Below are positions 3,501 to 43,196 of a DNA stretch of 64,000 nucleotides, in pieces. The notes beneath the pieces were generated by a model. That model saw only the letters and a list, made by a program, of their open reading frames with translations. It ran no database searches and was not told where the DNA came from. This DNA is from Raja brachyura (lineage: Eukaryota). The stretch lies in NCBI GenBank assembly GCA_963514005.1, contig OY740804.1, positions 5,270,001 through 5,334,000 on the forward strand. Direction: 5' to 3'. Every line of letters starts with the position of its first letter. Positions within the stretch are counted from its first letter, which is position 1. The position numbers and the translations under genes were made by a program.

Positions 3501-6500
3501 TAATGTGCCCACAGGGTCAAGTGGAATAACTGGACCCAAGGAGGTGAGCGGAGAGTTGGGGCAGTCAGTCACTATGGGATGTCAGTATGGTCGGGAATAC
3601 AGAGACAACAGGAAGCGATGGAGGAAAGGTGATTATTACGTGTCATCTGATATCGTGGTTTCTACTGATGACCCACGACAAGGGAGAACATCGATGACTG
3701 ATTACAAAACACAACAGATAGTTTCAGTAACCATCAACAACCTGGAGAAGAGTGATGAAGGACTCTACTGGTGCGAGATAGACATATCATTAAACTTCGA
3801 TGAAAAGACCTCCATCTCATTGAAGGTTTATAAAGGTACGTTGACGATCTCTCCTCACTCTCCCAGATGTGAAAATGCCAGCCTGGGAATTCCCGGCCTC
3901 GGTCCTGACGGTGACTCGGTGCCACATCCCTGGGGGTCCGTGGGGGGGGGGGTGAGGGGTTTGGGGCAGGTGAGAGGGGGGTAGGGTGGAACCGCTGCAT
4001 GGGGCCACACCAGGAGCCCACTGTCCCAGGAGCAGTGTGTTTTTGGGGGTGGGGGGGGGTGGGGGGGGGGGTTCATCAATGGGGACCGGCGGTCCTGCTG
4101 CTGGCGCCTCATTTCTCCAAAGACAATCTCTTCGGGACCAGAACCTCTGCCGCCCCAGGGGCAGGGAGGGGGGGGCGGGGGGGGGGAAGGCCCCCTCATA
4201 CTCTCCCCCTGCCCATCACTGTCACACCCACCACTCACACAACATCTGAAGAAGGATCCCAACCCTATACATCGTCTATTCATTCCTTCCACAGATGCTG
4301 CCTGACCTGCTAAGTTACTCCAGCACTTTGTGTTTTGCTTAAGATTCCAGCACCTGCAATTCCTTGTGTCTCACAAACTTTGGTGATTCATGAGCTCAGT
4401 TTATTGTTGTCGTCTGTACCGACGTACAGGGAAAAGCTTTTACCATGTTTCCAATGAGGGCCAAGTCATTGGGTATTTTTAAGGTGGAGATTAACAGGTT
4501 CTACATTAGTACGGGAGTCAAGCGATATGGGAAGAAGGCAGGAGAATGGGGTTGAGAGGGAGAGATACTGTAGATCAGCCATGATTGAATGGCGATGTAG
4601 ACAAAAATGGGCCAAATGGCCTCATTCTGCCCCTATCACATGAACATGACCGTAGAATCCGCATGAGATGAGTGATATAGACTTTACACTGAGCCACACA
4701 AACTGTACAAGATGAGATACTCAACGGGTCGGGCAGCATCTGTGGAGAGAGAACGAGAGTTAATGTTTCAGGTAGATACCTCCAACCAAATTGCATTATT
4801 TCCAATTCAGTCCGCGTAACGCAAATAGCCCATGGAACCTCACGCTCCCAAGTTCTTGTCTAACTTAGAAGACATGTGCCTTACTCCAGCAGCAGGAAGA
4901 TAACACAACCTGTGGGACTCTGAAGGGCATGAAAGAAGTCTCTCAATGCTTGCGACCATCCGGTGGCATCTTATTGGGTGAGCCTCCAGTCTAGATCAAG
5001 AGGCTTGGTCCATCTATGGTGGCCTCAGAAGGATCCTTTGCCCAATTGTCTGGAGTAGGATTCAAACAAAGAATCTCCCCACACTCCACTAAAGTGGCAC
5101 AGAACGTCCTTTCAGACATTTAATGTTCAAAAACTTCATTTTCTTTATCTCCACAAGGGTCCCAAACACACCGCCCAGACATGGTCACCACCACCTCTAC
5201 AACAATAAGCACAAGGGCTTCCACCACAACCACTCTGACCACGCTGACTCAAGATGCACCAACCACAAAGGAAGCAAGTTCCACTGAGGCTAACAAAAGT
5301 GCTGGAGAAACTCAGCGGGTGCAGCAGCATCTATGGACCGAAACAAGTTCCACTGAGGCTTCTGGTTCAGCACCTCCAAACAGGTTAGAAACTCGAAGAG
5401 CCAACTCAACCTCACCCGAGAACAAATTAGTTAAGCTCAATTCAGCTTGGTTTAAAGATACAGCGTGGAAATGGGCCCTTTGGCCCACCGAGTCAGCTCT
5501 GAGCAGCGATCACCCCATACACCAGTTCTGTTCTACACACTAGGGACAATGTACAGAAGCCAATTAACCTACAAACCCGCACGTCTTAGGACTGTGGGAG
5601 CAAACCGGAGAACCTGGAAAAAACTTGCGATCACAGGGAGAATGTACAAACTCTGTTCAGACGGAACCGGTTGTCAGGATCGAACCCGGGTCTCCTGCAC
5701 TGTGAGGCAGCAACTCTACCACTGCGCCACTGTGCCAACCCATAATGGTCAGCATGGTCTCAATGGGCCAAAGGGCCTGTTCCCATGTCATATATATCTA
5801 AACTCTAAACTACTTTATAGTTCCTTAAATACCAATAGAATTATTCACAATGTTCTAGAATTTAACCTGCACTGCATTCAAGTCTAGTTCCATATTTTTA
5901 CTTATCGGATCGAAACGCATGGTTTGTTACTGGGGAGGGAATCAGTCCTATTACTATGAGCTCTTCATTGGTTTTTCTTGTATTTTTCAGGCAGGCAGTT
6001 ACATTTCCATGGCAGGTTGTTCTATCGATTGCCTTGACAATTGTCTTTCTTTTGTTCATTGCTGCCATTATCCTATGTGTAAAAATAAGGCAGAAAAAGA
6101 AAACTGGTAAGTCCCGTTGAATGTACGTAAATATCAAGGGACACTCTTGTTGATGAACAAAGTTTGGCACTTCTCTCTGAGGCGTCTTTCACAAACTCAG
6201 ACCATTCACCTAGCGTATAACAGCAGGGAAAGACACCAAGTGCCGGAGTAACTCAGCGGGTCAGGCAGCATCTCTGGAGAACATGGACAGGGGACATTTC
6301 AGGGCGGCACAGTGGCAAAGCGGGAGAGTTGCTGCCTTACAACGGCAGACACCCGGGTTCGATCTTGACAAATGGTGCTGTCTGTGTGGAGTTTGTACGT
6401 TCTCCCTGTGAGCGTGTGGGTTTACACCAGAGAGACAGGCCCTTTGGCCCAACTCGTCCTTACTGACGCCCAAGGTGCTTCCCTACGCTAGTCCCACTTA

Positions 6501-9500
6501 CCTGTGCTTGTCCCACATCACTCTTAAAGCTTTCTTCTCCATGTATCTCTCCAAATGTCTTTTAAACGCTGGAATTGGACTTGCCTTTACCACTTCCTCT
6601 GTCGGTTTGATCCGTGTGATGAGAGTGGTCAAATCTGGGGTGAATTGACAGGAAGATGGGACGAATATAATGGGATTGTGGAGATGAATGGAAATGGATG
6701 CTTGATGGGCCAGCATGAGCTCAAAGGGCCAAAGGGCCTGCTTCCATACTGACGGTTCTGTGAAAACCATCTGGTTGGAAGCTGCAATAATATGCAGAAG
6801 TGTGTCAATCTTATCCAGATTGAACAAGAATGTTTTCATCTGCAAATGGTGCAGAGGAAGTGATGGCCACAGGAAGCCAGGAGACGATTGAGATCTTTCA
6901 GAAGCAGAAGGAGACAAACATATTTCCCAACAGGTTCAGACGTCGACGTCCTGTTATTTAGCTTAGTGATGACACGTGAACCCACTGAATCTCCATGCAG
7001 TGAAATTATCCGGAAATTGTAAAGCCGTTTTGAATTAGAACCCTTGGAAACACCCAGGAGCGGTGGAGGTAAGATCTGCAGGAGGAAGGCAGGAGAGATG
7101 ACTGATGACAACTTTGCTGAATTCATCAAGTCATAGAATTATACAGCACTGGCCATGCACTGAAGTTTAAATGTGTTCTGCTCCTTCCCTGTTCACAATC
7201 TAATGCTTCACACCAGAAACATGGCTCAGCTCATTTCTCAATGACTAAATGAGTATTTGGTTTAGTTTAAGAAAGAACTGCAGATGCTGGAGAAATCGAA
7301 GGTAGACAAAAATGCTGGAGGAATACAGTGGGTGAGGCAGCATCTATGGAGCGAAGGAATAGGTGACGTTTCGGGTCGAGACCCTTGAATTAGAAGGGTC
7401 CCGACCCGAAACGTCACCTATTCCTTCTCTCCATAGATGCCGCCTTACCCGCTCAGTCCCTCCAGCATTTTTGTCTACCTTTGGTTTAGCTTAGTTTAGT
7501 TTAGAGATAAACCATAAAAACTTCGGCCAAATAGTCCACACCAACCACCAATTATCCGCACTCTAGTCGTAGAGTCATACAGCATGGAAACAGGCAACTT
7601 CGGCGCAACCGACCAACATGCTCCATCTACACTCGTCCCACCTGCCTGCATTTGCCCATATCCCTCCAAACCTGTCCTATCCATGTACCTGCCTTAATGT
7701 TTCTTAAACGTTGTGATAGAATTGAAGACTGTGCAGTGTTTCAATTTCGGAACATATTTGTTTTGCTTAGTTGGTAGATGGAGCATGGAAACAGGCCCGT
7801 CGACCCACCAGGTCCACGCCGAACATTGATCATCCATTCACACTAGTTCTACATTATCCCACTTTCTCATCCATGTCCTGCACCCTGGGGGCAATCAACA
7901 GATTTGCAGCAGTCCAAGAATGTGGTTCACCAGCATCTTTGCATGGTTTTTGTTGCATTGACCACTTCTGAGGTCGCTCCCTGTTATGTCAGTTCCATTT
8001 TCATGGCCAAAGTGTTACAACGCAGGCCAGGCATGGTGACTATTCTCATCGTCGCCATGGCCTCTTGCTCATTGTGTACAAGCAACAGGAGAGATTTTGC
8101 TAATTTTAGTCTCAAATGAAAATGAAGTGTAGGTAAGGTTTGGGCATCTGTAGCCAGACAGGGTGTTTGACGAAAGAAAGCAGCAGAGAACTTAAGCAGA
8201 GAATCAGGAGGGCTAAAAGGGGCCATCAAATGTCCTTCACGAAAACAGACACAAAAATTGTTCCTAGTGTGTAGGATAGTGCCAGTGTACGGGGTGATCG
8301 CTGGTCGGCGTGGACTCGGTGTATCTCTAAGTCTAAAGATGTAAACAAAGCATCTAATCCCCTTCCTTATGGAAGCACCAACTACCCGTACACTAGTTCT
8401 ATTCTACACACCAGGAAACCATTTAATGCACAAACCTACACATCCTTGGTATGTGATGGGAAACCGGAGCACCCACGTGGTCACGGGGAGAATGCACCGA
8501 CTTGTACAGACAGCATCCATAGTGAGGATCGAACCCGGGACTCTGGTGCTGTGAGGCAGCAACTCTACCGCTGGGCCACTGTGCTGCAATTAATAATAAT
8601 AATAATACTAATAATCAATTTATTTGTACAGCAATTTTAAAACAACTCACTTTGACCAAAGTGCTTCACATCAGTGCAGGTACTAATGTGATACATACAA
8701 CCGGTGGACAGACCTGACAAAACATACATAAACTGTTGACAGCGCCCCCTCAGAGGGGCTCAAAAACAGTAGAAATAGGTTTTGAGTCATGACTTAAAGG
8801 AGTCGATGGTGGGGGCAGTTGTGATGAGGAGCGGGATGCTATTCCACAGTCTAGGTGCTGCAACCGCAAAAGCGCGGTCACCCCTGAGCTTAAACCTGGA
8901 CCGCGGGATAGTCAGTAGCCCCAAGTCGGCCGACCTGAGGGTCGGAGGCATTCCCCTGCTACTTTTCCTCAATGCAATAGATTATATTAGATAGACACAT
9001 CTGTAAATAAGCGATCCACACACTCTTGAAGTGTATAGCATCCTTTAATAATGGCACAGGGTATAACACACGTCAGCAAGCACTGGTTACATTCTGTTAC
9101 TGAACTATACCCAGGGAGGGGAAAGCGCTATGATTGATGTTAACTACGGCGGGGTTATTGGTACTGAGGTAGCTATATTATTGTCAAGTCAAAGTCAAAG
9201 TAAACTTTATTGTCAATTCAAATAATGCAACAAGTAGTTACACAGAGGATTGAAATTGCGTTTCCCCATACTCCAAATGTGCAAGTAATATTTATAACAC
9301 AGACAGACAATATACCATTTTGAGGTATGTTATTAAGGTGCAATAATAAAAGGTACAATATAGAAAAGTGCAAATAGCATACTGCAGACATTGAGTTAAA
9401 GTTATTTGACAGTCAGTTGGTCTTTGTTTGTGTAATGTTCATGGAATTTTCTTGAGTGAGTTGTGTAGTCTGATGGCCTGAGGGAAAAAGCTGTTTTTGA

Positions 9501-12500
9501 ATCTGGTGGTTTTGCGGTGGCGTTTGCCGGATGGAAGGGGGGTGAACAGTTTGTGTGCTGGATGGGTGGTGTCTTTGATGATGTTGGTTGCTCTCTCGCG
9601 ACGGCGAGATGGGTATAAGTCCTGGATTGCTGGTTGGGGTGATCTGGTGATCTTCTCCGCTGTCCTCACCACTCTCTGTAGGGCCTTCTGGTCAGCAGCA
9701 GAGCAACTGCCATACCAGACTGAGAGACTACTGGTAAGAATGCTCTCAATGGCACCCCTGTAAAAGGTGGTGAGGGCAGAAGGGGGGAAGGTCGGCTCTC
9801 CTCATCCGTCGAAGGAAGTGGAGGCGTTGCTGTGCTTTCTTGACTAGGGAGATGGTGTTGGTGGACCATGTCTGATCATCTGTGATGTGCACTCCCAGGA
9901 ACTTGGTGCTTTTCACAATCTCCACTGCACTGCCATTGATGGTGAGTGGGGTGTGTGCTGTCTGTTTCTTCCTGAAGTCCACAGTTATTTCTTTTTATTG
10001 ACATTGAGTTTAAGGTTATTGATGTCACACCAGTTGATGAGTTGTTGAACCTCCGCTCTGTAGGCTGAGTCGTCATCGTGGCTGATGAGGCCCACTACTG
10101 TAGTGCCATCTGCGAACTTGATGATGTGATTCGAATTGTGTTTGGCACAACAGTCATGTGTCATCAGCGTGAACAACAGAGGGTTCAGCACACATCCCTG
10201 TGGGACCCCGGTGTTCATGATGGTGGTCTCTGATGAGTTTTTGCCAACTCTTACTGTCTGTGGTCTGTCGGTAAGGAAGTCCAGTAACCAGTTGCATAGT
10301 GGGGTGCTGATGCCTATTTCGCCGAGTTTATTGACCAGGTGTTGGGGGATGACTGTGTTGAAGGCGGAGCTGAAGTCGATAAACAGCATCCGCACGTAAC
10401 TGTTATTGTTTTCCAGATGAGCCAGGCTTAGGTGGAGTGATGTTGCTATGGCATCATCAGTGGAACGGTTGGGACGATATGCAAACTTGACCAATCTTTC
10501 AAAGCACTTCATCATGATGGACGTGAGTGCTATGGGCCGGTAATCGTTCAGTGTTGAGGCTGGAGATTTCTTAGGTAACGGTATGATGGTGGTGTCTTTG
10601 AAGCATGCTGGTATGATGGCTTGGCTCAGAGAGGTGTTGAAGATGTCCGTGAGAACATCTGTGAGTTGGTCAGCACAGTCTCTGAGCACACGCCCCGGTA
10701 TGTTGTCAGGACCTGCAGCTTTTCTGGGGTTCACCTTGAGTAGGGTCCTCCGCACATCAACTGGGTCCAGGTGAAGTGTTTCATGGTCTGGGCAGGGAGG
10801 GGCTTTTGTTGGTGTGGTGGTGTTGTCTTCCTCAAACTGGTTGAAGAAGGTGTTAAGTGTGTTGAGGAAGTCTGCGTTGTCCTCGCACGGTAGGGGTGTT
10901 GGCCTGTAGCCGGTGACATACTGGATGCCTTGCCACAGGCGCTTGGGGTCCTTAGTGTCTGTGAAGTGTGCTTGAATTTTCTGTCCATAGACACGCTTGG
11001 CTGTTCTCCCACCCCGGTTCAAGTTGGCCCTAGCAGTACTAAAGGCGTCTTTGTCCCCGGACTTGAAAGCAGCATTCCGTGCCTTCAGGAGCTCACGTAC
11101 CGCCCTGGTGAACCAGGGTTTGTTGTTGGCCCTCGTGGTGATGTTTTTGATGACGGTCGCATCTTTCATGGATTTGAATATATATCCAGTCACAGATTCA
11201 GTGTATTCCGTCAAGTTGACATGATGGTTGGTAGTGGCAGCCTCCCTAAAAACGGTCCAATCTGTGCAGTCGAAACAGTCTTTGAGAGCTGAGGTGGCTC
11301 CCTCTGGCCATGCTCTGATCTGCATCACAGATATTGGTTGCATGCATAAACCATCTACATCCCTCCACTTAGAAAATCAAAACAGATCAGAAGTCATGAC
11401 AACAGAATTAAAGAAAATCACCATAACGAACAGGTGGCTTTCTAATCCAGCCCGAGCGCGTACGGATGTCTCCCCCTTCCCCCGAACGATTAGAAGAAAC
11501 AGCCGGGGAACCAGAGAAAGGCGGTGGGGTAGGAGAAGCAGGAGAGACAGAACCGCGACCGCCAACAGGAGACCCGCGCAAAGTAGAACAGGGCGCGCGA
11601 GATGGGGATCGAGGCATGCAGGGAACACGAGCTGGGACGGCAGCCGGCTGTTGATAAGAGAGGGGCGGGGCATAGGGGCCCGCAGGCTGCGGCTTCAGCT
11701 CATTCACAGCAAGCAGGCGTTGACGGCTTCTTCGGTAAATAGTTTCTTCAAAGTCGACCAGGTACGAACGAGGTGAATCGGCCGCCCCAACTACGGTGGC
11801 CAGACGGGAGTAACCACTGGTGGTCTGCAGGCGAACAACCTGTCCAGGCAACAGAGGATCGAGTGGTCTGCACGACCGATCGTGGGAACGCCGCTGGCTG
11901 CCATGTTTCTCTTGAATGCGCCTCTGCACGGACGCAGGCTCCAGCACCCGAGGTTGCAGCTGGCGCTGAGCAATCGGAATAATAGGTCTGGTTGTTCTGG
12001 ACATCAGACACTGAGCAGGGGACCCCATGGCCGGATCCCTGGAAATGTTCCTGAGGTTCAGGAGATCCAAATACAAGTCGGAGTTAGACAGTCGTGCCTG
12101 TTCCATAAAAAGCTTGGCGCTGCGGATGGCCCGTTCAGCAAGGCCATTGCTCTGTGGGTACTCTGGACTGCTGGTGAAATGCACGAAATTCCACTTATCA
12201 GCAAAAACTTTGAACTCTCGACTGGTAAACTGCCTTCCATTGTCAGTCTGCAACCGGACAGGAGACCCAAAAGTGGAGAAGTGTTTCCGCAGCTTACGGA
12301 TTACCATCTCCGACGTGAGGGATGTCAGCAAATCCACCTCGAACCAGTTGGAGTACGAGTCGACCAGGACAAGGTAGTGGTTACCACGCCACTCGAAGAT
12401 GTCGGCAGCCAGCGAGGACCAGGCCAAGGCAGGAGCAGGTTGTTGCAGCAGGGGCTGTCGCTGCTGGTGTGGTGCAAGACTGTTGCACGTGGAGCAGGCA

Positions 12501-15500
12501 GAAACGCGGTCCTGGATATACTTGGCCATTCCAGGCCAGTAGAATTGGCATTGAGCGTGGGCGAGTGTTGCATCGACCCCCGGATGTCCGCTATGGGCTG
12601 AGCAGTAGTACGAATCAACTAGGGAAGACGGGACTACAACTTTATGTCCCTTGACGATAACGCCATCCTGGAGCACCAGTTCGTCGTGGACCAGGAAGAA
12701 AGGCTGTGTTTCAGTCGGCACACTGGAGCACTTTGTTGGCCACCCCGATTTAATCACCACGGCAAGCCGCTGCAGAACTGGATCGGCAGTGGTGTGCTCA
12801 GCCAGAAGCTGTAACTGCTTGGTGGGAATAAAGTCAATTCCCAGTACGAGCAAGTCTTCTGTTTCGTAGGGGTGGCGGGCACAGGAAGTCCGCGGGGCGT
12901 GGGACAGGGTGTCCGCAATCAAACGCTGCAGCCTAGCAGGGGCAGCATGAATCGGTTTGTTCAGAATTGTCACCAGTGGCTGGTGGTCGGTTTCGACCGT
13001 GAATTTGCTGCCAAACAGGAAGTCTCTGAACTTAGAGCAGGCAAACTACCATGAGCAGCTCCTTCTCGATCTGAGCATACCGCTGCTCGGTGTCCGTCAT
13101 GGTGCGGGAAGCATAGGAGACAGGATGAAGCGATCCATCGACAGACTGTAGGCAGGCCGCGCCCAGACCGAACTTGGAAGCGTCACAGGTGACGGTGATG
13201 GGGTGACTCACGTCAAAGAACCGCAATGTCAGTGTGTTAATCAGTCTGGACTTCAGACAGTCGAAAGCCTGCTGGTGCTGTGGGAGCCAGGCCCAGGCGA
13301 TATCTTTTTTTGTCAGCTGCCGCAGGGATGCACTCGGCTCACTGAGATTTGGTATGAACTTCCCAAGGTAATTCACCATGCCCAGGAAGCGTTGCAGACC
13401 TGGCACGTCGGTGGGGGCTACCATCTCGGAAATGGCAGCAGCCTTCAAGGGATTAGGTTTCAGTCCGTTAGAGGTGAAAACATGTCTAACATACGTGACT
13501 TCTGAGACTCAAAACCTGCACTTCTTGGGGTTCAGTTTCAGGTTGGCCTGTCGCGCCCGATCCAGGACGCGGCGGAGGTTCAGGTCGTGCTCGGAAATGT
13601 CCTTCCCATAGACCAGGATGTCATCCACGATGATGGCACATGACAGGTCTGAGAATACCTGCTCCATCGTTCGCTGGAACACTTCGCTAGCAGAATTGAT
13701 GCCGAATGGCATTCGCAGAAACTTGAATCTGCCGAACGGTGTGGAGAAAGTCGTCGGGTCAGAGGAAGTTTTGTCCAATGGAATCTGCCAAAACGAGTTC
13801 TTAGCGTTGAGGACCGAGAAGACGGTGGCCTGCCTGACCCGAGCAGCCACGTCCTCAACAGACCGCATGAGGTAGTGGGGTTGCCTGATGGCAAGGTTTA
13901 AGTCCTTCGGGTTGATGCACACGCGTATTTCATTCTTGTCTTTCTTTAGCGTGGCAACCATGGTGGAGACCCACTCAGTGGGCTCGCTAACCGCTTCTAG
14001 CACCCCCTTTTCGACCATGTTGTTAAGCATCGCCTCGACCTTGTCTTTCTTGGCATGAGACACCCTGTGAGGTGCGCGGACCACGGGCGTCACATTTGGG
14101 TCAATGGAAATACGGTAAGTCAGTGGTAACTTTCCCAGGTCATCGTTGAACAGGTCTGGGTATTCTGCTACTGGGTCAAACGACATTAGCACTTTGTGGA
14201 CCGTGCGGTCGAAGGACACCAGGCCGAGGTCCTGGCACGCACGGTTGCCCAGCAGAGTCACACGATTGGAGGTCTCCGATTGGAGACGTGGGTTCGTATC
14301 CCACTTCTGACACCATGTAAATAAGCGATCCACACATTCTTGAAGTGTATAGCATCCTTTAATAATGGCACAGGTATAACACACATCAGCAAGCACTGGT
14401 TACATTCTGTTACTGAACTATACCCAGGGAGGGGAAAGCGTTATGATTGATGTTAACTAATGCGGGGCTATTGGTACTGAGGTAGCTATATTATTGGTTG
14501 CATGCATAAACCATCTACAACATCCTTCTCTCCAGTGATGTTGCTTGGCCCGCTGTGTTACTCTAGCATTTTGTGTCCACCTCCGGTGTAAACCAGCATC
14601 AGCAGTTTGTTCCTACACAGATTATATTAGAGTTAGGGAAGTAACTTCATGAAAACATATTTGTCCTGCATCCGATCCTCTTCCGCAAAGAGTGAACTGT
14701 GCCTTACAGCGCCAGAGACCAGGGTTCGATCCTGACTATGGGTCCGGTCTTTATGGAGTTTGCATGTTCTCCCCATGACTGCATGGTTTTTCTCCGAGAG
14801 TTTTGGTTTCCTCCCACACTCCATAGACGTACAGGTTTGTAGATTAATCAGCTTGATATAAATGTAAATTATATACAGACCACCAAACAGCAGTAGGGAG
14901 GTTGGGGATAGCTTCATGCAGGAAATTAGGGATGCATGGGTGACTTTACATTGGGCCAACCCAAATTGGTAACAACACTGAGAAGGAGGATTTCCTGGAA
15001 TGTATAGGGGATGGGTTTTTAAACCAATATGTAGAGGAACCGACTCGAGGGCAGGCCATCCTTAACTGGGTATTGTGTAACGAGGAAGGTTTAGCAATCT
15101 TGTTACGCAAGGCCCCTTGGGCAACAGTGACCATAATATAGTGGAATCCTGCATTAGGATGGAGGGTGACACAGTTAATTCAGAGACTAGGGTCCTAAAC
15201 TTGATTAAAGGAGACTTTGAAGGTATGAGATGGGAATTGGCTGGGATAAACTGGCAAACTATACTTGACAGTGGAGATGCAATGGCAAAGATTTAAAGAC
15301 CGCAAGGATGAACTCCAGAAATTGTTCATCCCTGTTTGGCGAATAAATAAAACTGGGAAGGCGGCTCAACCATGGCTGACGAGGGAAGTCAAGGATAGTG
15401 TTAAATCCTAGGAAGAGGCATATAAATTGGCCAGAAGAAGTGGCAAACCAGAGGACAGGGAGAAATTTAGAACTCAACAGAGGAGAACAAAGGGGTTAAT

Positions 15501-18500: not shown

Positions 18501-20549
18501 GGGCCTGTTTTCACACTGTATGACCCAATCCCAAAGACGTGTAGGTTAGTGGGTTAATTGGCCTCGATAAATTGCCCCACTGCTATGAAAGGGAATCAAG
18601 TATGACATAAATGGATACAATGCAACATTATCCCTTGTGTGTTTGACGTCAATAAAGTCCATATAAGAATTAATTATCATTATATTTTTCAGGCTCAAAT
18701 GGAAAGAGAAATATAAGTCAGGAAAATCCAGCAGAAAGTTTCACGGTAAGCCAATGCTACAGCATGTTGTAGTCCCAGGGAAATAAAGCAACCTTACTGG
18801 AGGTCATCCCTGAAGGGTCACACATCACATGACATATCGATCACTTGACCGCTCATAACATGGCACCTAAATGATCGAGTGCCCATCCTTGGCCTTCTCC
18901 ACTGCCTTGGTGAGGCCAGGCACAAACTCAAAGCACAACATCTGGGTTCGATCCTGACCACGGGTGCTGTCTGTGTGGAGTTTGCAGGTTCTTACTGTGA
19001 CCACCTGGGTTTCGTCTGGATGCTCCGGTTTCCTCCCACATCCCAAAGACGGGCGGGTTTGTAAGTGAATTGCCCTCCATAAATTTCCCCCAGTGTGTAG
19101 GGAGTGGATGTGAAAGTGGGATAACATAGATCTAAGGTGGACAGGTGGTCGATGGTCGATGGTCGCTGTGCGGCAGTAGGTCTACCAGCTGCACCACTGT
19201 GCCCATCCTTTCACTTCCTTTGTTGCCATTAATGGTCTCTACTGAGTTCACTCCTGTTATCAGTGGGCGGCACAGTGGCGCAGCGGTAGAGTTACTGCCT
19301 CACAGCGCCAGAGACCCGAGTTCCATCCTGACCTCGGATGCTGTCTGTGCAGTGTTTGCACGTTCTCCCTGTGCCGCCCGGGTTTTCTCCGGGTGACCCG
19401 GTTTGCTCCCACATTCCAAAGATGTGCAGGTTTGTAGATTAATTGTCTTCTGTAAATTGTCCCCAGTGTGTGGGATGCGAAACTGGGATAACATGGAACA
19501 ACTGTTAACGGGTGATTGATGGTCAGCGTGGACTTGGTGGGCCAAGGGGCCTGTTTCCATTCAGCATCTCTAAACTAAACTAAACTAAGTAATTATGTTT
19601 ACGTCTGAAGAAGGTTCTCGACCCAAAATGCCACCAATTCCTTTTCTCCAGAGATGTTGCCTGACCCGCTGGTTACTCCAGCATTTTGGGTTTGCTGTCC
19701 TCAAAAAGGCAGCCAGCATCATCAGAGACCCACACCACCCTGTCCGCACTCTCATTTCACCACTGCCATCGGGAAGCAGGTACAGGAGCCCGAAAACTGC
19801 AATGTCCAGGTTCAGGAACAGCTTCATCCCTACAGCCATCAGGGTGTTAAACACTACCTCAAATAGGGTCCAAACTACATAGTTCAAGAAGGAACTGCAG
19901 ATGCTGGAGAATCGAAGGAAGACAAATTTGCTGGAGAAACTCAGTGGGTGCGGCAGCATCTATGGAGCGAAGGAAAGAGTCTGAAGAAGGGTTTCGGCCC
20001 GACACTATCTTTAAGAAAGAACTGCAGATGCTGGAAAAATCGAAGGCAGGCAAAAGTGTTGGACAAACTCAGCGGGTGAGGCAGCATCTATGGGGCGAAG
20101 GAAATAGGTGGCGCTTCGGGTGGGAGATGTCAATGTTCAAGTAACCCTTGCTTTCCCTCTCTCTCCATCCCTTCCCCCTTCCCATATCTCCCACCAGTCT
20201 TACTGTCTCCGACTACATTTTATCTCTGTACCGCCCACACCCCTGACATCAGTCTGAAGAAGGGCCTCGACCCGAAACGTCACCTATTTCCTTCGCTCCA
20301 TAGATGCTGCCTGACCCGCTGAGTTTCTCCAACATTTTCGTCTACCTTCTGACACTATCTTTAAGTAATTATGTTTCTCACTTGACTCCAAAGGCAACCC
20401 CTGTCATTTATAGCACCGTGACAACCCGTTCTCCAGATTGCACGGAGAATACTTACATGAACCTTCAAAATCTGAACACACAAGGACAAGCCAAGAGGCA
20501 AGGTGCCGCAGAAGTTGTGTACGCAACAATTCTCACTGATAATAATTAA
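460..20549 (+). CDS. Gene 1: CD300/pIgR-like (CMRF35-like, MDIR-type) inhibitory Ig receptor, 322 aa; join(460..556,3515..3835,5158..5383,5991..6106,18693..18745,20394..20549)
   Basis: Six exons with GT-AG boundaries and compatible intron phases (1,1,2,1,0) total 969 nt and are open from ATG to TAA. They encode a signal peptide, IgV, Ser/Thr stalk, uncharged TM and a tail with VIYSTV, TYMNL and VVYATI. Family assigned from IgV motifs (GQSVTMGCQY; VTINNLEKSDEGLYWC). Confidence 0.85.
795..1180 (+). mobile_element. CR1 3' fragment
   Basis: Matches the CR1 ORF2 end and 3' UTR repeated through the window. Confidence 0.75.
3515..3835 (+). CDS. Gene 1 exon 2, Ig V-set domain
   Basis: Acceptor ccacag at 3514, donor AAG/gtacg at 3835. 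B-strand Cys (MGCQY), C-strand Trp, D-x-G-x-Y-W-C; lies in ORF 3505..3984. Confidence 0.93.
5158..5383 (+). CDS. Gene 1 exon 3, mucin-like Ser/Thr stalk
   Basis: Polypyrimidine tract and aag acceptor at 5157; Thr/Ser-rich frame (TTTSTTISTRASTTTTLTT); phase-2 donor AG/gttaga at 5383. Confidence 0.85.
5991..6106 (+). CDS. Gene 1 exon 4, transmembrane (QAVTFPWQVVLSIALTIVFLLFIAAIILCVKIRQKKKT)
   Basis: ttttcag acceptor, phase 2; uncharged hydrophobic helix followed by a basic stop-transfer; donor G/gtaagt. Confidence 0.9.
8590..8960 (-). mobile_element. L2-type LINE 3' fragment
   Basis: LRSADLGLLTIPRSRFKLRGDRAFAVAAPRLWNSIP on the minus strand with an (ATT)n tail. Confidence 0.75.
9184..11331 (-). 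mobile_element. 5'-truncated Rex1/Babar-type non-LTR retrotransposon inserted in the Gypsy 3' LTR
   Basis: RT ORF 9985..11343 (FAYRPNRSTDDAI, GVPQGCVLNPLLF; FADD mutated to FADG); (TTTGAC)n tail; TSD TATTG (9179-9183, 11332-11336). Confidence 0.92.
14271..14315 (+). other. Extended primer-binding site: copy of the 3' ~45 nt of tRNA-Leu(CAA-type) including CCA
   Basis: GGTCTCCGATTGGAGACGTGGGTTCGTATCCCACTTCTGACACCA folds as variable arm, T arm, acceptor strand and CCA, and abuts the LTR. tRNA identity is from recall of vertebrate tRNA-Leu. Confidence 0.85.
14876..17913 (+). mobile_element. Degenerate CR1/HER1-type LINE (endonuclease end and RT)
   Basis: WRVANVTPLFK, PVSLTSVVGKMLESI, LYRALVRPLLEY and the family 3' UTR; multiple stops. 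Confidence 0.9.
16169..16704 (+). mobile_element. CR1 3' fragment nested in the larger CR1
   Basis: Abrupt switch to the ORF2 C-terminus (ERVQRRFTRMLPG), (TATATGGT)n tail, flanking GGATGGA repeat (16162-16168, 16705-16711). Confidence 0.8.
18693..18745 (+). CDS. Gene 1 exon 5, short cytoplasmic exon (SNGKRNISQENPAESFT)
   Basis: tatttttcag acceptor and ACG/gtaagc donor; phase 1 to 0 bridges exons 4 and 6; sits in non-repeat sequence. Confidence 0.75.
19265..19588 (+). mobile_element. tRNA-derived V-SINE (HE1-like), full length; representative of dozens of copies
   Basis: A/B-box-like head (TGGCGCAGCGG; in other copies GGTTCGATCC), V-core GTTTGCACGTTCTCCC, (CTAAA)n tail. Confidence 0.85.
20016..20350. 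repeat. Penelope-derived fold-back insertion with hammerhead motif
   Basis: Antisense arm followed by sense 3' region starting TTCAAGTAAC (the GIY-YIG ORF end seen at ~35491); 15-bp flanking repeat GACACTATCTTTAAG (20001-20015, 20351-20365). Confidence 0.8.
20251..20284 (+). ncRNA. Minimal type I hammerhead ribozyme motif (Penelope-associated)
   Basis: CTGAAGA(20254-60)-A-GGG/CCC stem II-GAAA-CGTC; related copies at 1536-1569 and 59827-59860. Activity untested. Confidence 0.6.
20394..20549 (+). CDS. Gene 1 exon 6, ITIM-bearing tail
   Basis: aag acceptor at 20393, phase 0; ATPVIYSTV...TYMNL...EVVYATILTDNN*. Confidence 0.88.
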   Translation, partial: ATPVIYSTVTTRSPDCTENTYMNLQNLNTQGQAKRQGAAEVVYATILTDNN

Positions 20550-25229: not shown

Positions 25230-25523
25230 ATGCTCGAGTGGTTCCCATAACCTTTGACTCTCTTACCCTGAGTCAATCATGCTTACAATTTCGCAATGTA
25301 AAGTTTTGCAATTGCAGCTCACGTTCCTGGTCACACTATGCGTGACACTTTCCCAGCACCGCTGACATGCAGTAAATGATTGCATTCATTGCACAACCAC
25401 CATTTTTACTCATACAAATAAAAAATTGCTCAAAACTGCAAACCAGAACTGTCCCATTGAAATTCAAGGCACAGTACTCTCCTTATTACTGAAAGGCCAC
25501 AGCTGACACTGGCATTTCTAAGT

Positions 25524-25746
25524 GTTAAAGAAGGAACTGCAGATGCTGGAGAATCGAGGGTTACACAAAAAGCTGGAGAAACTCAGCGGGTGCAGCAGCA
25601 TCTAAGGAGTGAAGGAGATAGGCGACGTTTCAAGTCGAGGGTCTGAAGAAGGGTCTCTTCTTCAGACCCTCGACCCGAAACGTCGCCTATCTCCTTCACT
25701 CCTTAGATGCTGCTGCACCCGCTGAGTTTCTCCAGCTTTTTGTGTA
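25524..25746. repeat. Penelope-derived near-perfect palindrome
   Basis: Arms of about 90 bp, reverse-complementary around 25655; 18-bp flanking repeat ACACTGGCATTTCTAAGT (25506-25523, 25747-25764). Confidence 0.85.
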
Positions 25747-27939
25747 ACACTGGCATTTCTAAGTTTGGTTTAGTTCAGAAGAACAGTGGCGGTGGTGGCC
25801 GGATCTGTGGATACTTTCAAGAGAGAGCGAGATAGGGCTCTTAACGATGGCGGAGTCAGGGGATATGGGGAGAAGGCAGGAATGGGGTACTGATTGGGGA
25901 TGATCAGCCATGATCACATTGAATGGCAGTGCTGGCTCGAAGGGCCGAATGGCCTACTCATGTACCTATTGTCTATTGTCTATTGAAACAAGCCCTTCGG
26001 CCCACCAAGTCTGTGGCCACCATCAATCCCTACAGACCAACACCATCCTACACATCAGGGACAATTTACAATTATACCAAGCCCATCAGTCTACAATCCT
26101 GCACGTCTTTGGTGTGTGGGAGGAAACTGGAGATCCCGAAGAAAACCCACGCAGGTTACGGGGAGGACGTACAAACTCCATACAGACAAGCACCCGTAGT
26201 TAGGATCGAACCCGGGTCTCTGGTGCTGTAAGGCAGCAACTCTACCGCTGCGCCCCAAGATATTACGATACCTTATGATATTCCAAGTCTGTCTAAATTG
26301 AGATACAAGAGGACCTTCATACCTGGTCTACTCCATCCATGGAGGTCAAGATCACATTGACTCCCAACTTCCTAGTTGTAGGATTTGACCATCGAGGCAG
26401 CATGTCTTCTCAGCATCAGAGAGGTTATCATGGTAATGAATTAGAATCATAGACTCATAGTTATATAGCACGGAAATAGACCCTTCACTCATCCATGCTG
26501 ACCTAAATGCCCCACCTGACTGGTCCCATTTGGCCGCATTTGATCCATATCCCTCTAAACCATTCCAATCCATATACCTGTCCAATTGCATTTTAAATGT
26601 TGTTATAGTAGGCGCCTTAGCTACCTCCTTTGACAGCTCGTTCCATACACCCACCACATTCTGAGTGAAATGCTTGCCCCTCAGGTTCCTATTAAATCCC
26701 TCCCCCCTCAATTTAAACTTGTCCTCTGGATTTTGATTCCCCTTTTACTCTGGGTAAAAGGCTCTGTGAACTCACCCTATCAATTCCTCCTCATGATTGT
26801 ATACACCTCTATAAGATCACCCCTCAGCCTCCTGTGCTCCAAGGAATAAAGTCCTAGATTATCCAAATTTAGTTTAGTTTATCATTTAGTTTATCACATG
26901 GTCCAAGGCACAACGGAAAACCATTTTCTTGCATGCTATCCAGTCAGCAAAAGGACTATACGTGATTACAATCAAGCCATCCACAGTGTACAGAGACAGG
27001 ATAAAGGGAAATACTGTAGGTTCCGTGCAAGATAAAGTCCAGTAAAGTCCAATTAAAGATGGTGCAAGGGTCTCCAATGAGGTGGATGGTAGGTCAGGAT
27101 CAGTCTCTAGTTAGTAATAAGAAGGTTCCGTTTCATGATAACATGAAGGAAGGAAGAAACTCCGTGAATCTGCAGGTGTCGTTTCAAACTTCTGTACCTC
27201 TTGCCTGATGAGAGAGGGGAGAAGAGGGAGTGGCCAGGGCGAGACACATCCTCCTTGTAGCTCAGACCTTCGAGTCCTGGCAAAATCCTGATAAATCTTC
27301 TCCGCGCTCTTCCCAGCCATGAAGGAAGAATTTCAACTGTTTAGGAAGGAACTGCAGATGCCGGTTTAAACGGAAGGTAGACACAAAAAGCCGGAGTAAC
27401 TCAGCGGGTCAGACAGCATCTCTGGAGACAACCCCGTACGCTAGGACTATCCGACACACTGGGGACAATCTACAACTTAGCGAAGCCAGATAACCTTCAA
27501 ATCCACACGTCTTTGGATGGTGCGAGGAAACCGGAACACCCGGAGAAAATCACGCGGTCATGGGGAGAACGTACAAACCCCGTACAGACAGCACCCATAG
27601 TCACAATTGAACCCAGGTCTCTGGCGCTGTAAGTTCAGCAAGTTGTGAAACAGGATGTTTGTCAATGTTCCTTATTCTACATTGGATTACAAAGTATTAA
27701 TTTTAAAAAGTGCATCTCCCAACACTGATCTTTAAGGAGGTCAGGATTGGGATATGACCACATAAGTGTGGATACCCTCACTGGAAACCTGCTTCAGTTC
27801 AGCTTGTCTTCTCCTCAAACCTCTGCCAACCACAGTTAATCCCCCAAAGTGGAACCGTTGACAATGTGCACGCAACAGGTTGCAAAACAGGATATGGGAC
27901 AATGTTCCTTACTCTATGTCACATTGCAAAGCATTTGTT

Positions 27940-27980
27940 CATTCGTGAGGAAGTTTGCACACGGAACAAGTGGTTAAATC
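27940..27980 (+). promoter_or_regulatory. Putative gene 2 proximal promoter with an ETS/PU.1 core (GAGGAAGT 27947-27954) and a RUNX-like GTGGTT
   Basis: About 110 nt upstream of the ATG and retained in the duplicate (GAGGAAGTG 41783-41791); motif match only. Confidence 0.4.
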
Positions 27981-28060
27981 AAACAAGAGTAAGTCGTGAA
28001 CAGCGCGAATTGGAGACCGCTTCATCGGCAAACAAGGACCTCTCTCTCTCTGGAACCACG

Positions 28061-28097
28061 ATGTTTTACATTCTGCTGTTTCTCACTGTGACTTCAA
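28061..28097 (+). CDS. Gene 2 exon 1, leader (MFYILLFLTVTS)
   Basis: accacgATG start, hydrophobic peptide, phase-1 donor A/gtaagt. Confidence 0.85.
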
Positions 28098-34000: not shown

Positions 34001-37000
34001 GCAAGGACCCCCTGATCCCATTGTACTTCTCCTTTTCCCAACTTGATGCAATTTAGATAGTAATCTGCCTTCCCGTTTTTGCTACCAAAGTGGATAACCT
34101 CACATTTATCAGCATTAAACTTAATCTGCCATGCATCTTCCCAATCCCCCAACCTGTCCAAGTCACCCTGCATTCTCATAGCATCCTCCTCACAGTTCAC
34201 ACTGCCACCCAGCTTTGTGTCATCTGCAAATTTGTTAATGTTACTTTGAATACTTCATCCAAATCATTGATGTATATTGTAAATAGCTGCGGTCCCAGCA
34301 CCGAGCCTTATGGTACCCCACTAGTCAAAGGGACCTGTTAATCCCTACTCTTTGTTTCCTGTCTACCAACCACTTCTCTATCCATGTCAGCACTCTACCT
34401 CCATATACCATGTGCCCTAATTTTGCCCACTAATCTCCTATGTGGGACCTTATCAAATGCTTTCTGAAAGTCCAGGTACACTACATCCATTGGCTCTCCC
34501 TTGTCTATTTTCCGAGTTACATCTTCAAAAAATTCCAGAAGATTAGTCAAGCATTTCTCCCCGTATTGTCTTTTTGGTTATCTTCTGTTGTTCTTTAAAC
34601 ATTACTCAATCCTCTTGCTTTCCGCTCATCTTTGCTACGTTGTACTTCTTCGCTTTAATTTTTATACTGTCCCTGACGTCCCTTGTCAGCCATGGTCGTC
34701 CCTTTCTCCCCTTGGAATCTTTCTTCCTCCTTGGAATGAACTGATCCTGCACCTTCTGTATTATTATTCCTAGAAACACCTGCCATTTTTGTTCCACTGT
34801 CATCCCTGCTAGTGTATCTTTCCAGTCAACTTTGGCCAGCTCCTCCCTCATGGCCCCATGATCCCCTTTATTCAACTGCAGCACTGACACCTCCGATCTA
34901 CTCTTCTCCTTCTCCAAGTCCACACACTAGGGACAATTTGCTATTTTACCAAGCCTATTAACCTACACACCTGAAGGTGTTTGGAGTGTGGGAGGAAACC
35001 GGAGTTCCCAGCGGAAACCCACACAGGCCAAGGGGAGAATGTATAAACTCCGTACAGACAGCACCCATAGTCAGGATTGCGCCACCATCCAGGACAAGTG
35101 TACGGGTGATCGAGGGCCGAAGGGCTTGTTTCTGCTCTGTATCGCCAAACTAAACATGTCCCGTGCCAGTGATGGAAGGCCGGGACACCAGAGGTCACCG
35201 ACACTTATTCCAACTAGTGTCACTGGATGTTGTACGCCCATCTGCAAGATATCGGCGAGACCAAGCACAGACTGGGAGATCGTTCCGCTGAACACCTTCG
35301 CTCAGTCTGCCTTGACCTATGCAATCTTCCAGTGCCATTAGTTAACTCCCCTTACCATTCCCAAACTGACCTTTCTGTCCCGGGCCTCCTCCACTGTCAG
35401 TGTGAGGCCAAATGCAAATTGGAGGAACAGCACCTCATATTTCGCTTGGGCAGCTTACAACCCAGCGGTATGCATATTGATTTCTCTAACTTCAAGTAAC
35501 TTTTGTATTCCTTCTCTCTCCGTCTCTCTCCCAATCTGGTCGTCGCACTAGTTTCACTGTTGTCCTGCTGAGTTTCAGTGTTTGTATCAATAGACAATAG
35601 ACAATAGGTGCAGGAGTAGGCCATTCGGCCCTTCGAGCCAGCACCGCCATTTAATGTGATCATGGCCAATCATCCGGCCCTTGGTTCTGGACTCCCCAAA
35701 CATCGGGAACATGTTTCCTGCCCTTGCGTGTCTAAACCCTTAATAATCTTATATGTTTCAATAAGATCCCCTCTCATTATCACTTTCCCCACAGCCAACA
35801 ATGGACCATTGTGGGCTCCACATTTCCTTGATCATCGGTGCTGGCTTTGATCCTTCTATTTACTTGGCTTTCTATCATTTATTCTATGTACCTTTTCATA
35901 TCTCTCGTTTCCATCTCCCCTGACTCTCAGTCTGAAGAGTCAGGTTTCAGTGGTGGGTCTTGAACCCACAACCACGAGCGTCTCCTCAGTGTTTGACAGT
36001 GAAAAGGAAGTGGTTCTCGGTTGCTAAGACCGGAAAGTAACATGTGGTTGCAGCTTCTGGTAAGGTTGTCGGTTGGTTAGTGGGAGGGGGGAGGGGGGAG
36101 GGGGGAGCATGAGTGCGGAAGAAAGTGGGGAACTGCGATGTGTGCTGCGGTTGACACCTCATCACAAGCGGAACAAACCTGCTTCCAACCACCTCCATCA
36201 AGACCTCTACCATCTCCTTGTTCCCCAGAGCTACAGTATTTATTTTTAAGAGAAACAGTGTGCAAACAGGGCCCTTGGCCCACCGAGTCCACACCGACCA
36301 ACACTCACCCATACACTAGTTCTATCCTACACATTAGGGACAATTTACAGAAGGCAATTCACCGACAAACCTGCACGACTTTGTAACGTGGGAGGAATAG
36401 ATACAGCATGGAAACAGGCCCTTGGGCCCATTGAATCCGCGCCAACCGGCGATCACCCCGGTACACGAGCACCTCTTAAATCCATCCAGTGATTTGGCCT
36501 CCACTGCCCTCTGTGGCAGGGAATTCCATAAATTCACAACTCTGAGGTGAGAAAAAACTTTTTTACCCAAAGTCTTAAATGACCTCCCCTTTATTCTAAG
36601 GCTGTGGCCCCAGGTTCTGGACTCACCCAACATTGGGAACATTTTTCCTGCATCTAGCTTGTCCAGTCCTTTTATAATTTTATATGTTTCTATAAGATCC
36701 AGGAGGCAGATACGATAGCGGCATTTACGAGGCTTTTAGATAGGCACATGGATATGCATGGAATGAAGGGATGTGGATCACTTGAAGGCAGAGGGGATTA
36801 GTTTAACCTGGCACCATGTCGGGTATAGACAATGTGGGCCGAAGGGCCCGTTTCCTGTACTGTACTGTTCAATGTTTTCTGCTGCTCGGGGAAATATGAG
36901 AACTATTGTTATTCTAAATTACATGCTGTTACCTGTTTTTGCAGATTATTCCAAAAACTCAGAAACTCCCACCACAGCCAAGGTAAGAATGTAAACTGTA

Positions 37001-37896
37001 TGAAACCATTCTGTATTATTTCTCTTTTCAAATTCTGAACAGGATACATCTCTTCCTTACATGTGTTGAACTGTAGAGTCTGATTTACAGAACCAGACAG
37101 AGTGCTGGAGTAGCTCAGCCGGTCAGGCAGCATTTCTGGAGAACATGGATCGGTGACATTTTAGGTCGGGACCTGTGAGTCTGAAGCAGGGTCCTGACCG
37201 ATTCATATTCTCCAGAGATGCTGCCTGACCCGCTGAGTTAATCCAGCACTTTGTGTCCTTTTCTTTAACAAATTACAACGCAACACTGCCCTTTGATTCG
37301 GTTTCCCTCTCTACGTTTGCTGCCCGACCTGTTGAGCATTTCCTCCAGTTAGTTTATTTAGAGATACACCGCGGAAACAGGCCCTTTGGCCCACCGAGCC
37401 CATGCTGACCAGCGATTCCTGCACATTAACACGGCCCTACACACAATGGGGACAATTTTACATTTATACCAAACCAATTAACATACAAACCTGTACGTCT
37501 TTGGAGTGTGGGAGGAAACCGAAGATCTCGGAGAAAATCCACGCGGCTCACCGGGAGAACGTACAAACTCCATACAGACAGCGCCCGTAGTCGGGATTGA
37601 ACCTGGGTCTCTGGCGCTGTGAGGCAGCAACTCTACCGCTGCGCCACCCTTATTCTCAGATTTCCACAGTATTTTGCTTTTGTCCTTAAACATCTAACGG
37701 ACTTTTTTTGTTTCAGTCTGAAGGTGAAACTGAAGATACGGTTGCATATTCCACCGTGACCATTCAGTCGTCAGAACAGACCGTAGCAAGCCCTGCAATT
37801 TATTCCAATCTTAAGGATCTAAAGGAGCAAAATGAAGACGTCAAGATCCATTCGTCAGAATCGGTGGAATATTCTGCTCTGGTGTTCCGATCTTAG
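28061..37896 (+). CDS. Gene 2: two-IgV CD300/pIgR-like (MDIR-type) inhibitory receptor, about 345 aa; join(28061..28097,28990..29301,30796..31110,31808..31847,32608..32723,36945..36982,37717..37896)
   Basis: Seven GT-AG exons with intron phases 1,1,1,2,1,0 total 1038 nt open. They encode leader MFYILLFLTVTS, two IgV domains with the family C-C' cysteine pair, a short stalk, an uncharged TM and a tail with VAYSTV, AIYSNL and VEYSAL. Confidence 0.88.
28990..29301 (+). CDS. Gene 2 exon 2, IgV domain 1
   Basis: caacag acceptor; GETVTIEC...SWCKAYSRVGC...LQKNDTGTYWCG; donor CAG/gtaaga. Confidence 0.92.
29610..30045 (-). mobile_element. CR1 3' fragment
   Basis: ORF 29681..30031 (YTLEFRRMRGYLIE...SLWNSLPQ) plus tail. 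Confidence 0.8.
30045..30405 (-). mobile_element. Penelope-like element 3' fragment (GIY-YIG C-terminus)
   Basis: NHFKSPSHSHIDLSVLGLLH...KLEEQHFIF...QPSGMNVEFSHFK. Confidence 0.85.
30796..31110 (+). CDS. Gene 2 exon 3, IgV domain 2 (NAGNAG acceptor; start 30796 or 30799)
   Basis: tacagcag acceptor; TTIHCRY...KFLCKVVSVNSC...DVGEYWCG; donor AAG/gtataa. Confidence 0.92.
31808..31847 (+). CDS. Gene 2 exon 4, short stalk (TLTKPEVPSNKA)
   Basis: ctcag acceptor and AG/gtaaga donor; phase 1 to 2, as in the gene 1 stalk exon. Confidence 0.8.
32608..32723 (+). CDS. Gene 2 exon 5, transmembrane (GTPQIWHIILPLVLGLLIVILIVLLVKKRKQSETIPQK)
   Basis: aag acceptor at 32607 (phase 2), hydrophobic helix plus KKRK, donor T/gtaagt; 116 nt, the same length as the gene 1 TM exon. 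Confidence 0.88.
33304..34915 (-). mobile_element. CR1/HER1-type LINE fragment with internal deletions
   Basis: Minus-strand ORF fragments 33516-34923 and a (CTATTGT)n tail. Confidence 0.88.
35235..35945 (+). mobile_element. Penelope-like element 3' fragment (GIY-YIG endonuclease C-terminus and 3' region), interrupted by a CR1 piece
   Basis: IGETKHRLGDRSAEHLRSV...KLEEQHLIFRLGSLQPSGMHIDFSNFK*. Confidence 0.85.
36945..36982 (+). CDS. Gene 2 exon 6, short cytoplasmic exon (YSKNSETPTTAK)
   Basis: tttttgcag acceptor, AAG/gtaaga donor, phase 1 to 0. Confidence 0.82.
37717..37896 (+). CDS. Gene 2 exon 7, ITIM-bearing tail
   Basis: tttttttgtttcag acceptor, phase 0; SEGETEDTVAYSTV...AIYSNL...VEYSALVFRS*. 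Confidence 0.9.
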   Translation, partial: SEGETEDTVAYSTVTIQSSEQTVASPAIYSNLKDLKEQNEDVKIHSSESVEYSALVFRS

Positions 37897-43112: not shown

Positions 43113-43196
43113 AAGTTTGCAATCTCTTCACTCTGGTGTTCACATTAAATTCAATTGGAATTTACTTTAGAATTATAGAGATAAAGTGTGGACATA

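What the first reader, a model, noticed from the sequence alone, without database searches (positions are those of the whole stretch)
5275..5360. Transposon fragment captured in frame inside the gene 1 mucin-stalk exon, creating an N-glycosylation sequon
Seen: a perfect 17-nt direct repeat CAAGTTCCACTGAGGCT (5275-5291, 5344-5360) flanks 52 nt (5292-5343). The insert matches the antisense arm of the Penelope-derived repeat common in this window (compare 25563-25605). 52+17 = 69 nt = 23 codons, so the frame is kept and the stalk gains NKSAGETQRVQQHLWTETSSTEA, which begins with N-K-S. Inference: a TE-templated insertion lengthened, and possibly glycosylated, the stalk of an otherwise intact ITIM receptor. 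It may be allele- or lineage-specific.
Basis: partly seen in the sequence, partly recalled or inferred. Interest (0 to 1): 0.75.

Follow-up and report, generated by a model that had tools for sequence, protein, structure and literature searches.

The report
Penelope insertion lengthens skate immune receptor
A tiny piece of a Penelope-like jumping gene landed inside a coding exon of a skate immune-receptor gene and kept the reading frame, adding 23 amino acids; it is a clean example of a known kind of event, with no sign yet that it changes what the receptor does.

Summary
An exact 17-nt direct repeat (5275-5291, 5344-5360) flanks 52 nt in the stalk exon of an open six-exon, 322-aa pIgR/CD300-like receptor gene with ITIM-type motifs. 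All 7 named skate homologues lack the insert: their stalks are 47-52 aa, against 75 = 52+23 here. It is therefore derived, though none of the 7 is a proven one-to-one orthologue. The insert is the antisense of a Penelope-like element (PLE) pseudo-LTR. It starts at the family's 'tail-less' end (15 of 37 arms start there), and four other copies carry exact 14-18-nt duplications. Best reading: a heavily 5'-truncated target-primed PLE insertion that kept the frame by chance in a tolerant mucin stalk. N-K-S is the protein's only extracellular sequon, but it depends on one junction base, and 2 of 7 homologues have no ectodomain sequon at all. About 16% of simulated insertions into this exon are in frame and open. 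Expression, glycan use, allele status and any effect on function are untested. Real and neat, but a known kind of event.

The parts
5275..5291 (+). Left copy of the target-site duplication (original host sequence)
   Evidence: Exact 17-nt repeat; homologues have the corresponding peptide stretch once
5292..5343 (-). 52-nt PLE pseudo-LTR fragment, antisense to the gene; begins at the tail-less end and stops about 13 nt short of the hammerhead core
   Evidence: 90-93% to young copies; start position 45 on the reference arm; offset from GAAAC
5292..5300 (+). N-K-S sequon (Asn185), the only N-X-S/T in the predicted ectodomain; the Asn codon depends on a junction one base shorter than either template variant
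5344..5360 (+). Right copy of the target-site duplication
5158..5383 (+). Ser/Thr-rich stalk exon of gene 1 (phase 1 in, phase 2 out), 75 aa against 47-52 aa in homologues
   Evidence: splice scores
460..556 (+). Gene 1 leader exon
   Evidence: 89-94% identical to homologue leaders
3515..3835 (+). Gene 1 Ig V exon, two cysteines only
   Evidence: Pfam V-set E 7e-15; PDB hits to pIgR and CD300; cysteine count
5991..6106 (+). Gene 1 transmembrane exon, no charged residue in the hydrophobic stretch
18693..18745 (+). Gene 1 first cytoplasmic exon
20394..20549 (+). Gene 1 last coding exon with tyrosine motifs VIYSTV, NTYMNL, VVYATI
   Evidence: same three motif positions in Leucoraja P0004
25506..25764 (.). 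Comparison copy: two-armed PLE insertion (one arm with tail, one without) with an exact 18-nt duplication; shares the GCAGC variant with the exon insert
35218..35499 (+). Degenerate C-terminal endonuclease piece of the PLE ORF, directly upstream of pseudo-LTR sequence; anchors the family as Penelope-like
   Evidence: 57 of 82 identical to Leucoraja P0157, which has RVT_1 and a sub-threshold GIY-YIG match; link to the repeat arm E 4.9e-6

Best explanation
A Penelope-like retrotransposon inserted into the stalk exon by target-primed reverse transcription. Its endonuclease cut the two strands about 17 nt apart. The + strand 3' end after 5291 primed cDNA at the element's internal, tail-less start site. 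Synthesis stopped after about 51 nt, and repair duplicated the 17-nt stagger. The 69-nt gain happened to keep the frame and has no stop. It persisted because a mucin stalk tolerates length change, so the effect is most likely near neutral: a 23-residue longer stalk and a sequon that may be glycosylated. Shown: repeat, insert, family, open frame, empty homologues. Inferred: the cut geometry, inclusion in mRNA and protein, and near neutrality.
For: Arm starts are bimodal: 17 of 37 at reference positions 1-14, 15 of 37 at 37-49, 5 elsewhere; the insert starts at 45. This matches the two reverse-transcription start sites that bound the 30-40-bp 'tail' in PMC11167929 (parts 1-2 of 4 read). Four other copies have exact 14-18-nt flanking duplications and two more reach 14 nt with one mismatch, among 32 intervals tested. 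Family identity: RT plus GIY-YIG relative and hammerhead-core motifs at 6 of 7 pattern matches. Empty stalk in 7 of 7 named homologues. The natural splice sites score 9.8 and 8.4, and no GT donor or AG acceptor inside the insert scores above 0. Simulation: 15,891 of 100,000 insertions were in frame and open.
Against: Every other copy with a duplication is two-armed; this is the only single-armed one. No transcript or protein with the insert was found. The GIY-YIG match is below Pfam's cut-off, the window's own fragment had no Pfam hit, and Rfam found no hammerhead at gathering score. Several interval limits were set by hand after reading the sequence. A new sequon arose in only 491 of 15,891 open simulated insertions (3%), which a neutral reading must treat as luck. 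The splice matrix was trained on just 10 donors and 8 acceptors.
Confidence: 0.6

Rival explanations
1. Two-ended origin. The event was the usual two-armed PLE insertion: either the second end primed at the tail site, copied only 3-4 nt and annealed to the first cDNA, or a full 200-350-nt palindrome inserted and later collapsed by microhomology deletion to a frame-restoring 52-nt remnant.
For: All 7 other candidate duplication-bearing copies are two-armed, and none has a total gain divisible by three. On the minus strand the right junction reads G|TTT, like the tail start GTTTAAG/GTTAAAG of young copies, and departs from the template (GAAG) at that base. Microhomology-mediated deletion in PLE copies is described in PMC3846280 (passages).
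Against: The match is 4 nt, of which only two bases are informative (roughly 1 in 15 by chance, my estimate, post hoc). A full palindrome would first have broken the gene. No intermediate allele is available.
Confidence: 0.2
2. Exaptation. The insertion was favoured because the longer stalk or the new N-glycan improves surface display, stability or ligand reach of the inhibitory receptor.
For: N-K-S is the only ectodomain sequon; gene 1 reads TDYKT where 8 Ig domains of P0001 and P0002 and 2 of P0005 have the sequon TDN[KR]T. Asn185 lies 37 residues from the membrane and 137 from the C-terminus, compatible with glycosylation (recalled rule). A sequon arose in 3% of open simulated insertions. 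The frame depends on junction irregularities.
Against: Both single-Ig homologues (P0006, P0007) have no ectodomain sequon, so the family does not need one. The sequon was picked out after the fact. N-X-S is the weaker sequon (recalled). No population or expression data.
Confidence: 0.1
3. The insert does not reach protein: it is removed as a 69-nt GC-AG intron (5289-5357, which would restore the empty mRNA exactly), the exon is skipped, or the gene is silent.
For: The duplicated sequence contains AG|GC, so precise removal is geometrically possible (sequence). No database protein carries the insert. The natural donor score (8.4) is just under the in-sample training range of 9.2-13.3.
Against: The GC donor at 5289 scores 1.8 even when counted as GT, and the acceptor at 5357 scores -5.2. 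Skipping the 226-nt exon would shift the frame. The ORF is intact and 129 of 157 identical to Leucoraja P0004 outside the Ig domain.
Confidence: 0.06
4. Not retrotransposition but templated repair: a staggered break from another cause was patched with a PLE-derived RNA or DNA template, or the feature is an assembly error.
For: Very short insert with irregular junctions on both sides and one private substitution.
Against: The start coincides with the family's preferred end, and the duplication length matches other copies. An assembly error would not be expected to produce both features.
Confidence: 0.04

Closest known systems
Penelope/Poseidon-type PLE insertions (Poseidon of Anolis carolinensis, PMC11167929; Adineta vaga Penelope, PMC3846280; structure summary in PMC8557442)
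   Same: Two internal start sites about 35-40 nt apart (tail and tail-less), inverted pseudo-LTR arms, 5' truncation, hammerhead-type core upstream of the start sites, RT followed by a GIY-YIG-type domain, target-site duplication.
   Different: Duplications here are 14-18 nt, against 8-10 bp in the A. vaga passages read. The target is not AT-rich. Several junctions in this window show 2-6 nt of target-template identity, whereas the anole element primed without homology in vitro. This copy is single-armed, only 52 nt long, and lies in a coding exon.
In-frame transposable-element insertions and TE-derived cassettes in protein-coding exons (general class; recalled, search listing only)
   Same: TE sequence read in antisense as host peptide, frame kept, located in a low-constraint region.
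   Different: It inserted directly into an existing exon rather than being exonised from an intron through new splice sites, and the donor is a PLE rather than a SINE or LINE.
CD300/CMRF35, pIgR-like receptors and skate MDIRs (PMC3031540, passages)
   Same: Type I receptor: leader, V-set Ig, Ser/Thr stalk, transmembrane segment, tyrosine-motif tail; best PDB matches are pIgR and CD300; multigene cluster with inhibitory- and activating-type tails.
   Different: Only one disulfide pair in the Ig domain (W-R-K-G instead of W-C-K/R-G), as in most skate homologues; stalk 23 aa longer than in the homologues. MDIR sequences themselves were not compared.

Membership tests
Penelope-like element (donor family) | RT plus C-terminal GIY-YIG endonuclease in one ORF | tested here: inconclusive
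   35218-35496 is 57/82 identical to Leucoraja P0157, which has RVT_1 (E 5.6e-19) and GIY-YIG (E 0.008, below cut-off); the window fragment has no Pfam hit of its own and no full ORF was looked for
Penelope-like element (donor family) | Optional 30-40-nt tail, i.e. two start sites | tested here: met
   17 of 37 arms start at 1-14 and 15 of 37 at 37-49
Penelope-like element (donor family) | Inverted pseudo-LTR arms flanked by a target-site duplication | tested here: met
   Four two-armed copies with exact 14-18-nt duplications, null maximum 11 in 200; anatomy
Penelope-like element (donor family) | Minimal hammerhead ribozyme motif in the pseudo-LTR | tested here: inconclusive
   Recalled core pattern CTGANGA..GAAA at 6 repeat positions of 7 matches; Rfam 0 hits at gathering score; monomer folds did not give a hammerhead fold; PMC4209133 section 4 says minimal motifs act as dimers
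Penelope-like element (donor family) | RT phylogeny placing it in Penelope/Poseidon, Neptune or Nematis | not tested
   No RT tree was built; the clade is left open
PLE target-primed insertion (the 52-nt insert) | Start at a family start site, flanked by a family-length duplication, empty ancestral site | tested here: met
   empty state at protein level in 7 of 7 homologues
PLE target-primed insertion (the 52-nt insert) | Empty site at DNA level in an orthologue or second allele | not testable with these tools
   No vertebrate DNA collection is available
CD300/CMRF35 family (host gene) | V-type Ig domain similar to CD300/pIgR | tested here: met
   Pfam V-set; PDB pIgR and CD300LF E 1e-12
CD300/CMRF35 family (host gene) | Second disulfide pair and YWCR-type motif (PMC3031540) | tested here: not met
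   Two cysteines only; strand C reads RWRKG. Filed as CD300/pIgR-like, not as a member
ITIM-bearing inhibitory receptor | [ILVS]xYxx[LV] motif (recalled consensus) in the tail, uncharged transmembrane segment | tested here: met
   VIYSTV fits; VVYATI fits only the relaxed form; NTYMNL does not
ITIM-bearing inhibitory receptor | Phosphatase recruitment and inhibition | not testable with these tools
   Needs experiments
Skate MDIR family | Sequence clustering with MDIR1-4 | not tested
   Known here only from passages of PMC3031540; no MDIR-named protein appeared or 21
Exapted TE-derived coding cassette | Present in mRNA and protein, fixed, under selection | not testable with these tools
   No RNA-seq, proteomics or population data

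The most novel reading that the evidence does not exclude
A Penelope-like element fragment has been exapted as coding sequence in a skate immune receptor. It supplies the ectodomain's only N-glycan, in place of the Ig-domain sequon found in several relatives, and lengthens the stalk. Because the exonic arm can pair with opposite-strand PLE arms in the gene's own introns (predicted duplexes -58 to -74 kcal/mol for 8 arms, against a median of -24 for 299 random windows), A-to-I editing could even switch the sequon on and off. The junction may also record a two-ended priming event in miniature.
Probability: 0.1. Interest if true: 0.7.

Novelty: new member of a known kind. Interest (0 to 1): 0.36.

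Why it matters
As it stands it is a tidy natural example with two uses. First, it gives in-genome, single-base support in a cartilaginous fish for the two internal start sites shown in vitro for a lizard PLE, together with 14-18-nt duplications that constrain how the endonuclease cuts. Second, it is a ready-made length and glycan variant in a fast-evolving skate receptor family. If the glycan proved occupied and selected, it would be a case of a PLE contributing directly to an immune receptor's protein sequence. I found no such case (listings only, open-licence library), which is weak evidence of absence.

Tried and rejected
Rfam scan of the window: 0 hits. Folding two sense arms as monomers did not show a hammerhead fold. 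Pfam found nothing on the stalk, the tail or the endonuclease fragment. AlphaFold on the stalk exon alone gave beta strands in Thr-rich sequence at mean pLDDT 66 from a single sequence; I treated it as uninformative. The multiple protein alignment misplaced the insert, so stalks were compared directly. Automatic cluster limits missed the focal duplication, so limits were reset, partly by hand. The 150 best hits of the profile-library search carry no names, and naming them was not possible, so the homologue comparison rests on 7 named skate proteins. I recalled that PLE priming needs target homology; PMC11167929 reports the opposite in vitro, so the imperfect GAGGCT/GAGGGT likeness at the left junction is not used as evidence. 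'Loss of the second disulfide marks a pseudogene' was rejected because 6 of 7 homologues also have two cysteines per Ig domain. mRNA self-cleavage was rejected because the insert is antisense and lacks the core. Paper searches for cartilaginous-fish CD300/pIgR, skate PLEs, templated insertions and PLE exonisation gave nothing on this locus. Supplements were not read; those of PMC11167929 (start-site mapping) may bear on the comparison.

Full report
Observation. The 17-mer CAAGTTCCACTGAGGCT occurs exactly twice in the window, at 5275 and 5344, flanking 52 nt, and cannot be extended without a mismatch. With one mismatch it reaches 21 nt. Among 200 random intervals searched alike, the longest exact flanking repeat was 11 nt. 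A looser search allowing a partner up to 900 nt away reached 17 nt or more at 3 of 400 random positions. The insert matches young copies of a repeat at 90-93%. The 69-nt gain adds NKSAGETQRVQQHLWTETSSTEA: 17 element-derived residues, one hybrid codon and five duplicated host residues.

Host gene. Six exons (460-556, 3515-3835, 5158-5383, 5991-6106, 18693-18745, 20394-20549) with GT-AG junctions give an open 322-aa protein. The Ig exon is V-set, and its best solved relatives are pIgR and CD300. Protein searches returned 7 named skate proteins: 2 Rhinoraja longicauda, 2 Leucoraja erinacea and 3 Amblyraja radiata. The window is therefore from a skate (inference). Outside the Ig domain, gene 1 is 129 of 157 identical to Leucoraja P0004 and keeps three tyrosine motifs. 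It has only two Ig cysteines, so it fails the two-disulfide criterion given for CD300 in PMC3031540 (passages). Six of 7 homologues share that state, so it is a family trait and not decay.

Derived state. All 7 homologues have the empty stalk: 52 aa in six and 47 aa in one, against 75 here. Their Ig domains are only 67-72% identical for the six listed, so none is a proven one-to-one orthologue, and the age and allele status remain open. Neither search returned a protein with the insert; both tools warn that such absence is weak evidence.

Donor family. A fragment at 35218-35496 is 57 of 82 identical to Leucoraja P0157. P0157 carries RVT_1 and a sub-threshold GIY-YIG match; the fragment itself had no Pfam hit. 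The sequence just after its stop matches the long arm of the repeat at 20130-20350 (E 4.9e-6), and a hammerhead-core pattern (recalled) falls on the repeats at 6 of 7 matches. Rfam found nothing at gathering score. Of 37 arms, 17 start at reference positions 1-14, 15 at 37-49 and 5 elsewhere; the exon insert starts at 45. PMC11167929 (parts 1-2 of 4 read) shows that a lizard PLE starts reverse transcription at two internal sites that bound the 30-40-bp tail and extends both cut strands. PMC8557442 and PMC3846280 (passages) describe inverted arms with a tail on one end. Among 32 intervals tested, some overlapping and some set by hand, four other copies have exact 14-18-nt duplications, two reach 14 nt with one mismatch, and one has 8 nt, within the null range. 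All seven are two-armed.

Mechanism. The best reading is target-primed insertion: a cut staggered by about 17 nt, priming from the + strand end at 5291 at the tail-less site, truncation after about 51 nt (13 nt short of the hammerhead core), and fill-in that duplicated the stagger. The left junction is one base shorter than either template variant; that irregularity keeps the frame and creates the Asn codon. The right junction departs from the template at one base and on the minus strand resembles the tail start. This allows a two-ended origin or the collapse of a longer palindrome, but it rests on 4 nt.

Consequence. With a matrix trained on 10 donors and 8 acceptors from the window (2 and 4 of the 12 listed each were dropped because my coordinates missed the GT or AG), the natural sites score 9.8 and 8.4 and nothing inside the insert scores above 0 as a GT donor or AG acceptor. 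The precise-excision GC-AG pair scores 1.8 and -5.2. A pre-existing GC at 5274 scores 7.4 if counted as GT but would shift the frame. Inclusion in mRNA is therefore likely but not shown. Asn185 is the only ectodomain sequon; 5 of 7 homologues have sequons in Ig domains, none has one in the stalk, and 2 have none at all. In 100,000 simulated insertions of young arms into the empty exon, 33,337 kept the frame, 15,891 were also stop-free and 491 of those made a sequon (junction indels were not modelled). Survival thus needs no special explanation. The sequon is uncommon but was singled out after the fact. The exonic arm can pair with opposite-strand arms in the gene's introns, which makes editing a testable but speculative extra. 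A fold of the stalk exon was uninformative.

Verdict. It is most likely an ordinary, very short PLE insertion tolerated in a mucin stalk. Searches of the open-licence library (listings only unless stated) showed no report of this locus. Novelty: new member of a known kind; interest 0.36. The exaptation reading has a probability of about 0.1.

Noticed in passing
window 43001-43108 and about 45907-45975: Intact arginine-containing (activating-type) transmembrane exon and short tail exon, 86-91% identical to Leucoraja P0003, with no family Ig or stalk exon of their own after gene 1. The phase fits gene 1's stalk donor at 5384, and Rhinoraja model P0002 has both transmembrane segments in series. 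Either one ectodomain splices to inhibitory or activating tails across gene 2, or this is the remnant of a deleted paralogue.
   Followed up: partly
window 27729-28533 and 41565-42367: An 805-nt segment around the gene 2 leader exon is duplicated at 95% identity; the second copy has ATA where the first has the start ATG, so it looks like an orphan pseudo-leader.
   Followed up: partly
window about 28061-37893: Gene 2: a second, divergent receptor with two Ig V exons (about 28991-29301 and 30796-31109), short downstream exons and a tyrosine-motif last exon (read). Its model was not completed.
   Followed up: no
window 7256-7493, 20001-20365, 25506-25764, 58784-59188, 59722-59986: Two-armed PLE insertions with 14-18-nt duplications; several ends show 2-6 nt of identity between target end and template, unlike the homology-free priming reported in vitro for the anole element.
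   Followed up: partly
window about 19587-20376: Nested PLE insertions: a further exact 15-nt repeat 761 nt apart encloses the 20010-20350 copy and ends about 18 nt upstream of the last coding exon's acceptor.
   Followed up: partly
window about 9430-14330: Gene 1 intron 4 (12.6 kb) holds what reads as a minus-strand LINE and an LTR-retrotransposon-like pol region with a short direct repeat at about 9006-9180 and 14319-14490 (read by eye; not tested).
   Followed up: no
window 3515-3835: The skate subfamily lacks the second Ig disulfide typical of CD300: gene 1 and 6 of 7 homologues have two cysteines per domain, and one has an unpaired third.
   Followed up: partly
window about 43195-45560: A Tc1-like DNA transposon remnant with inverted ends appears to lie between the orphan transmembrane and tail exons (read by eye; not tested).
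   Followed up: no
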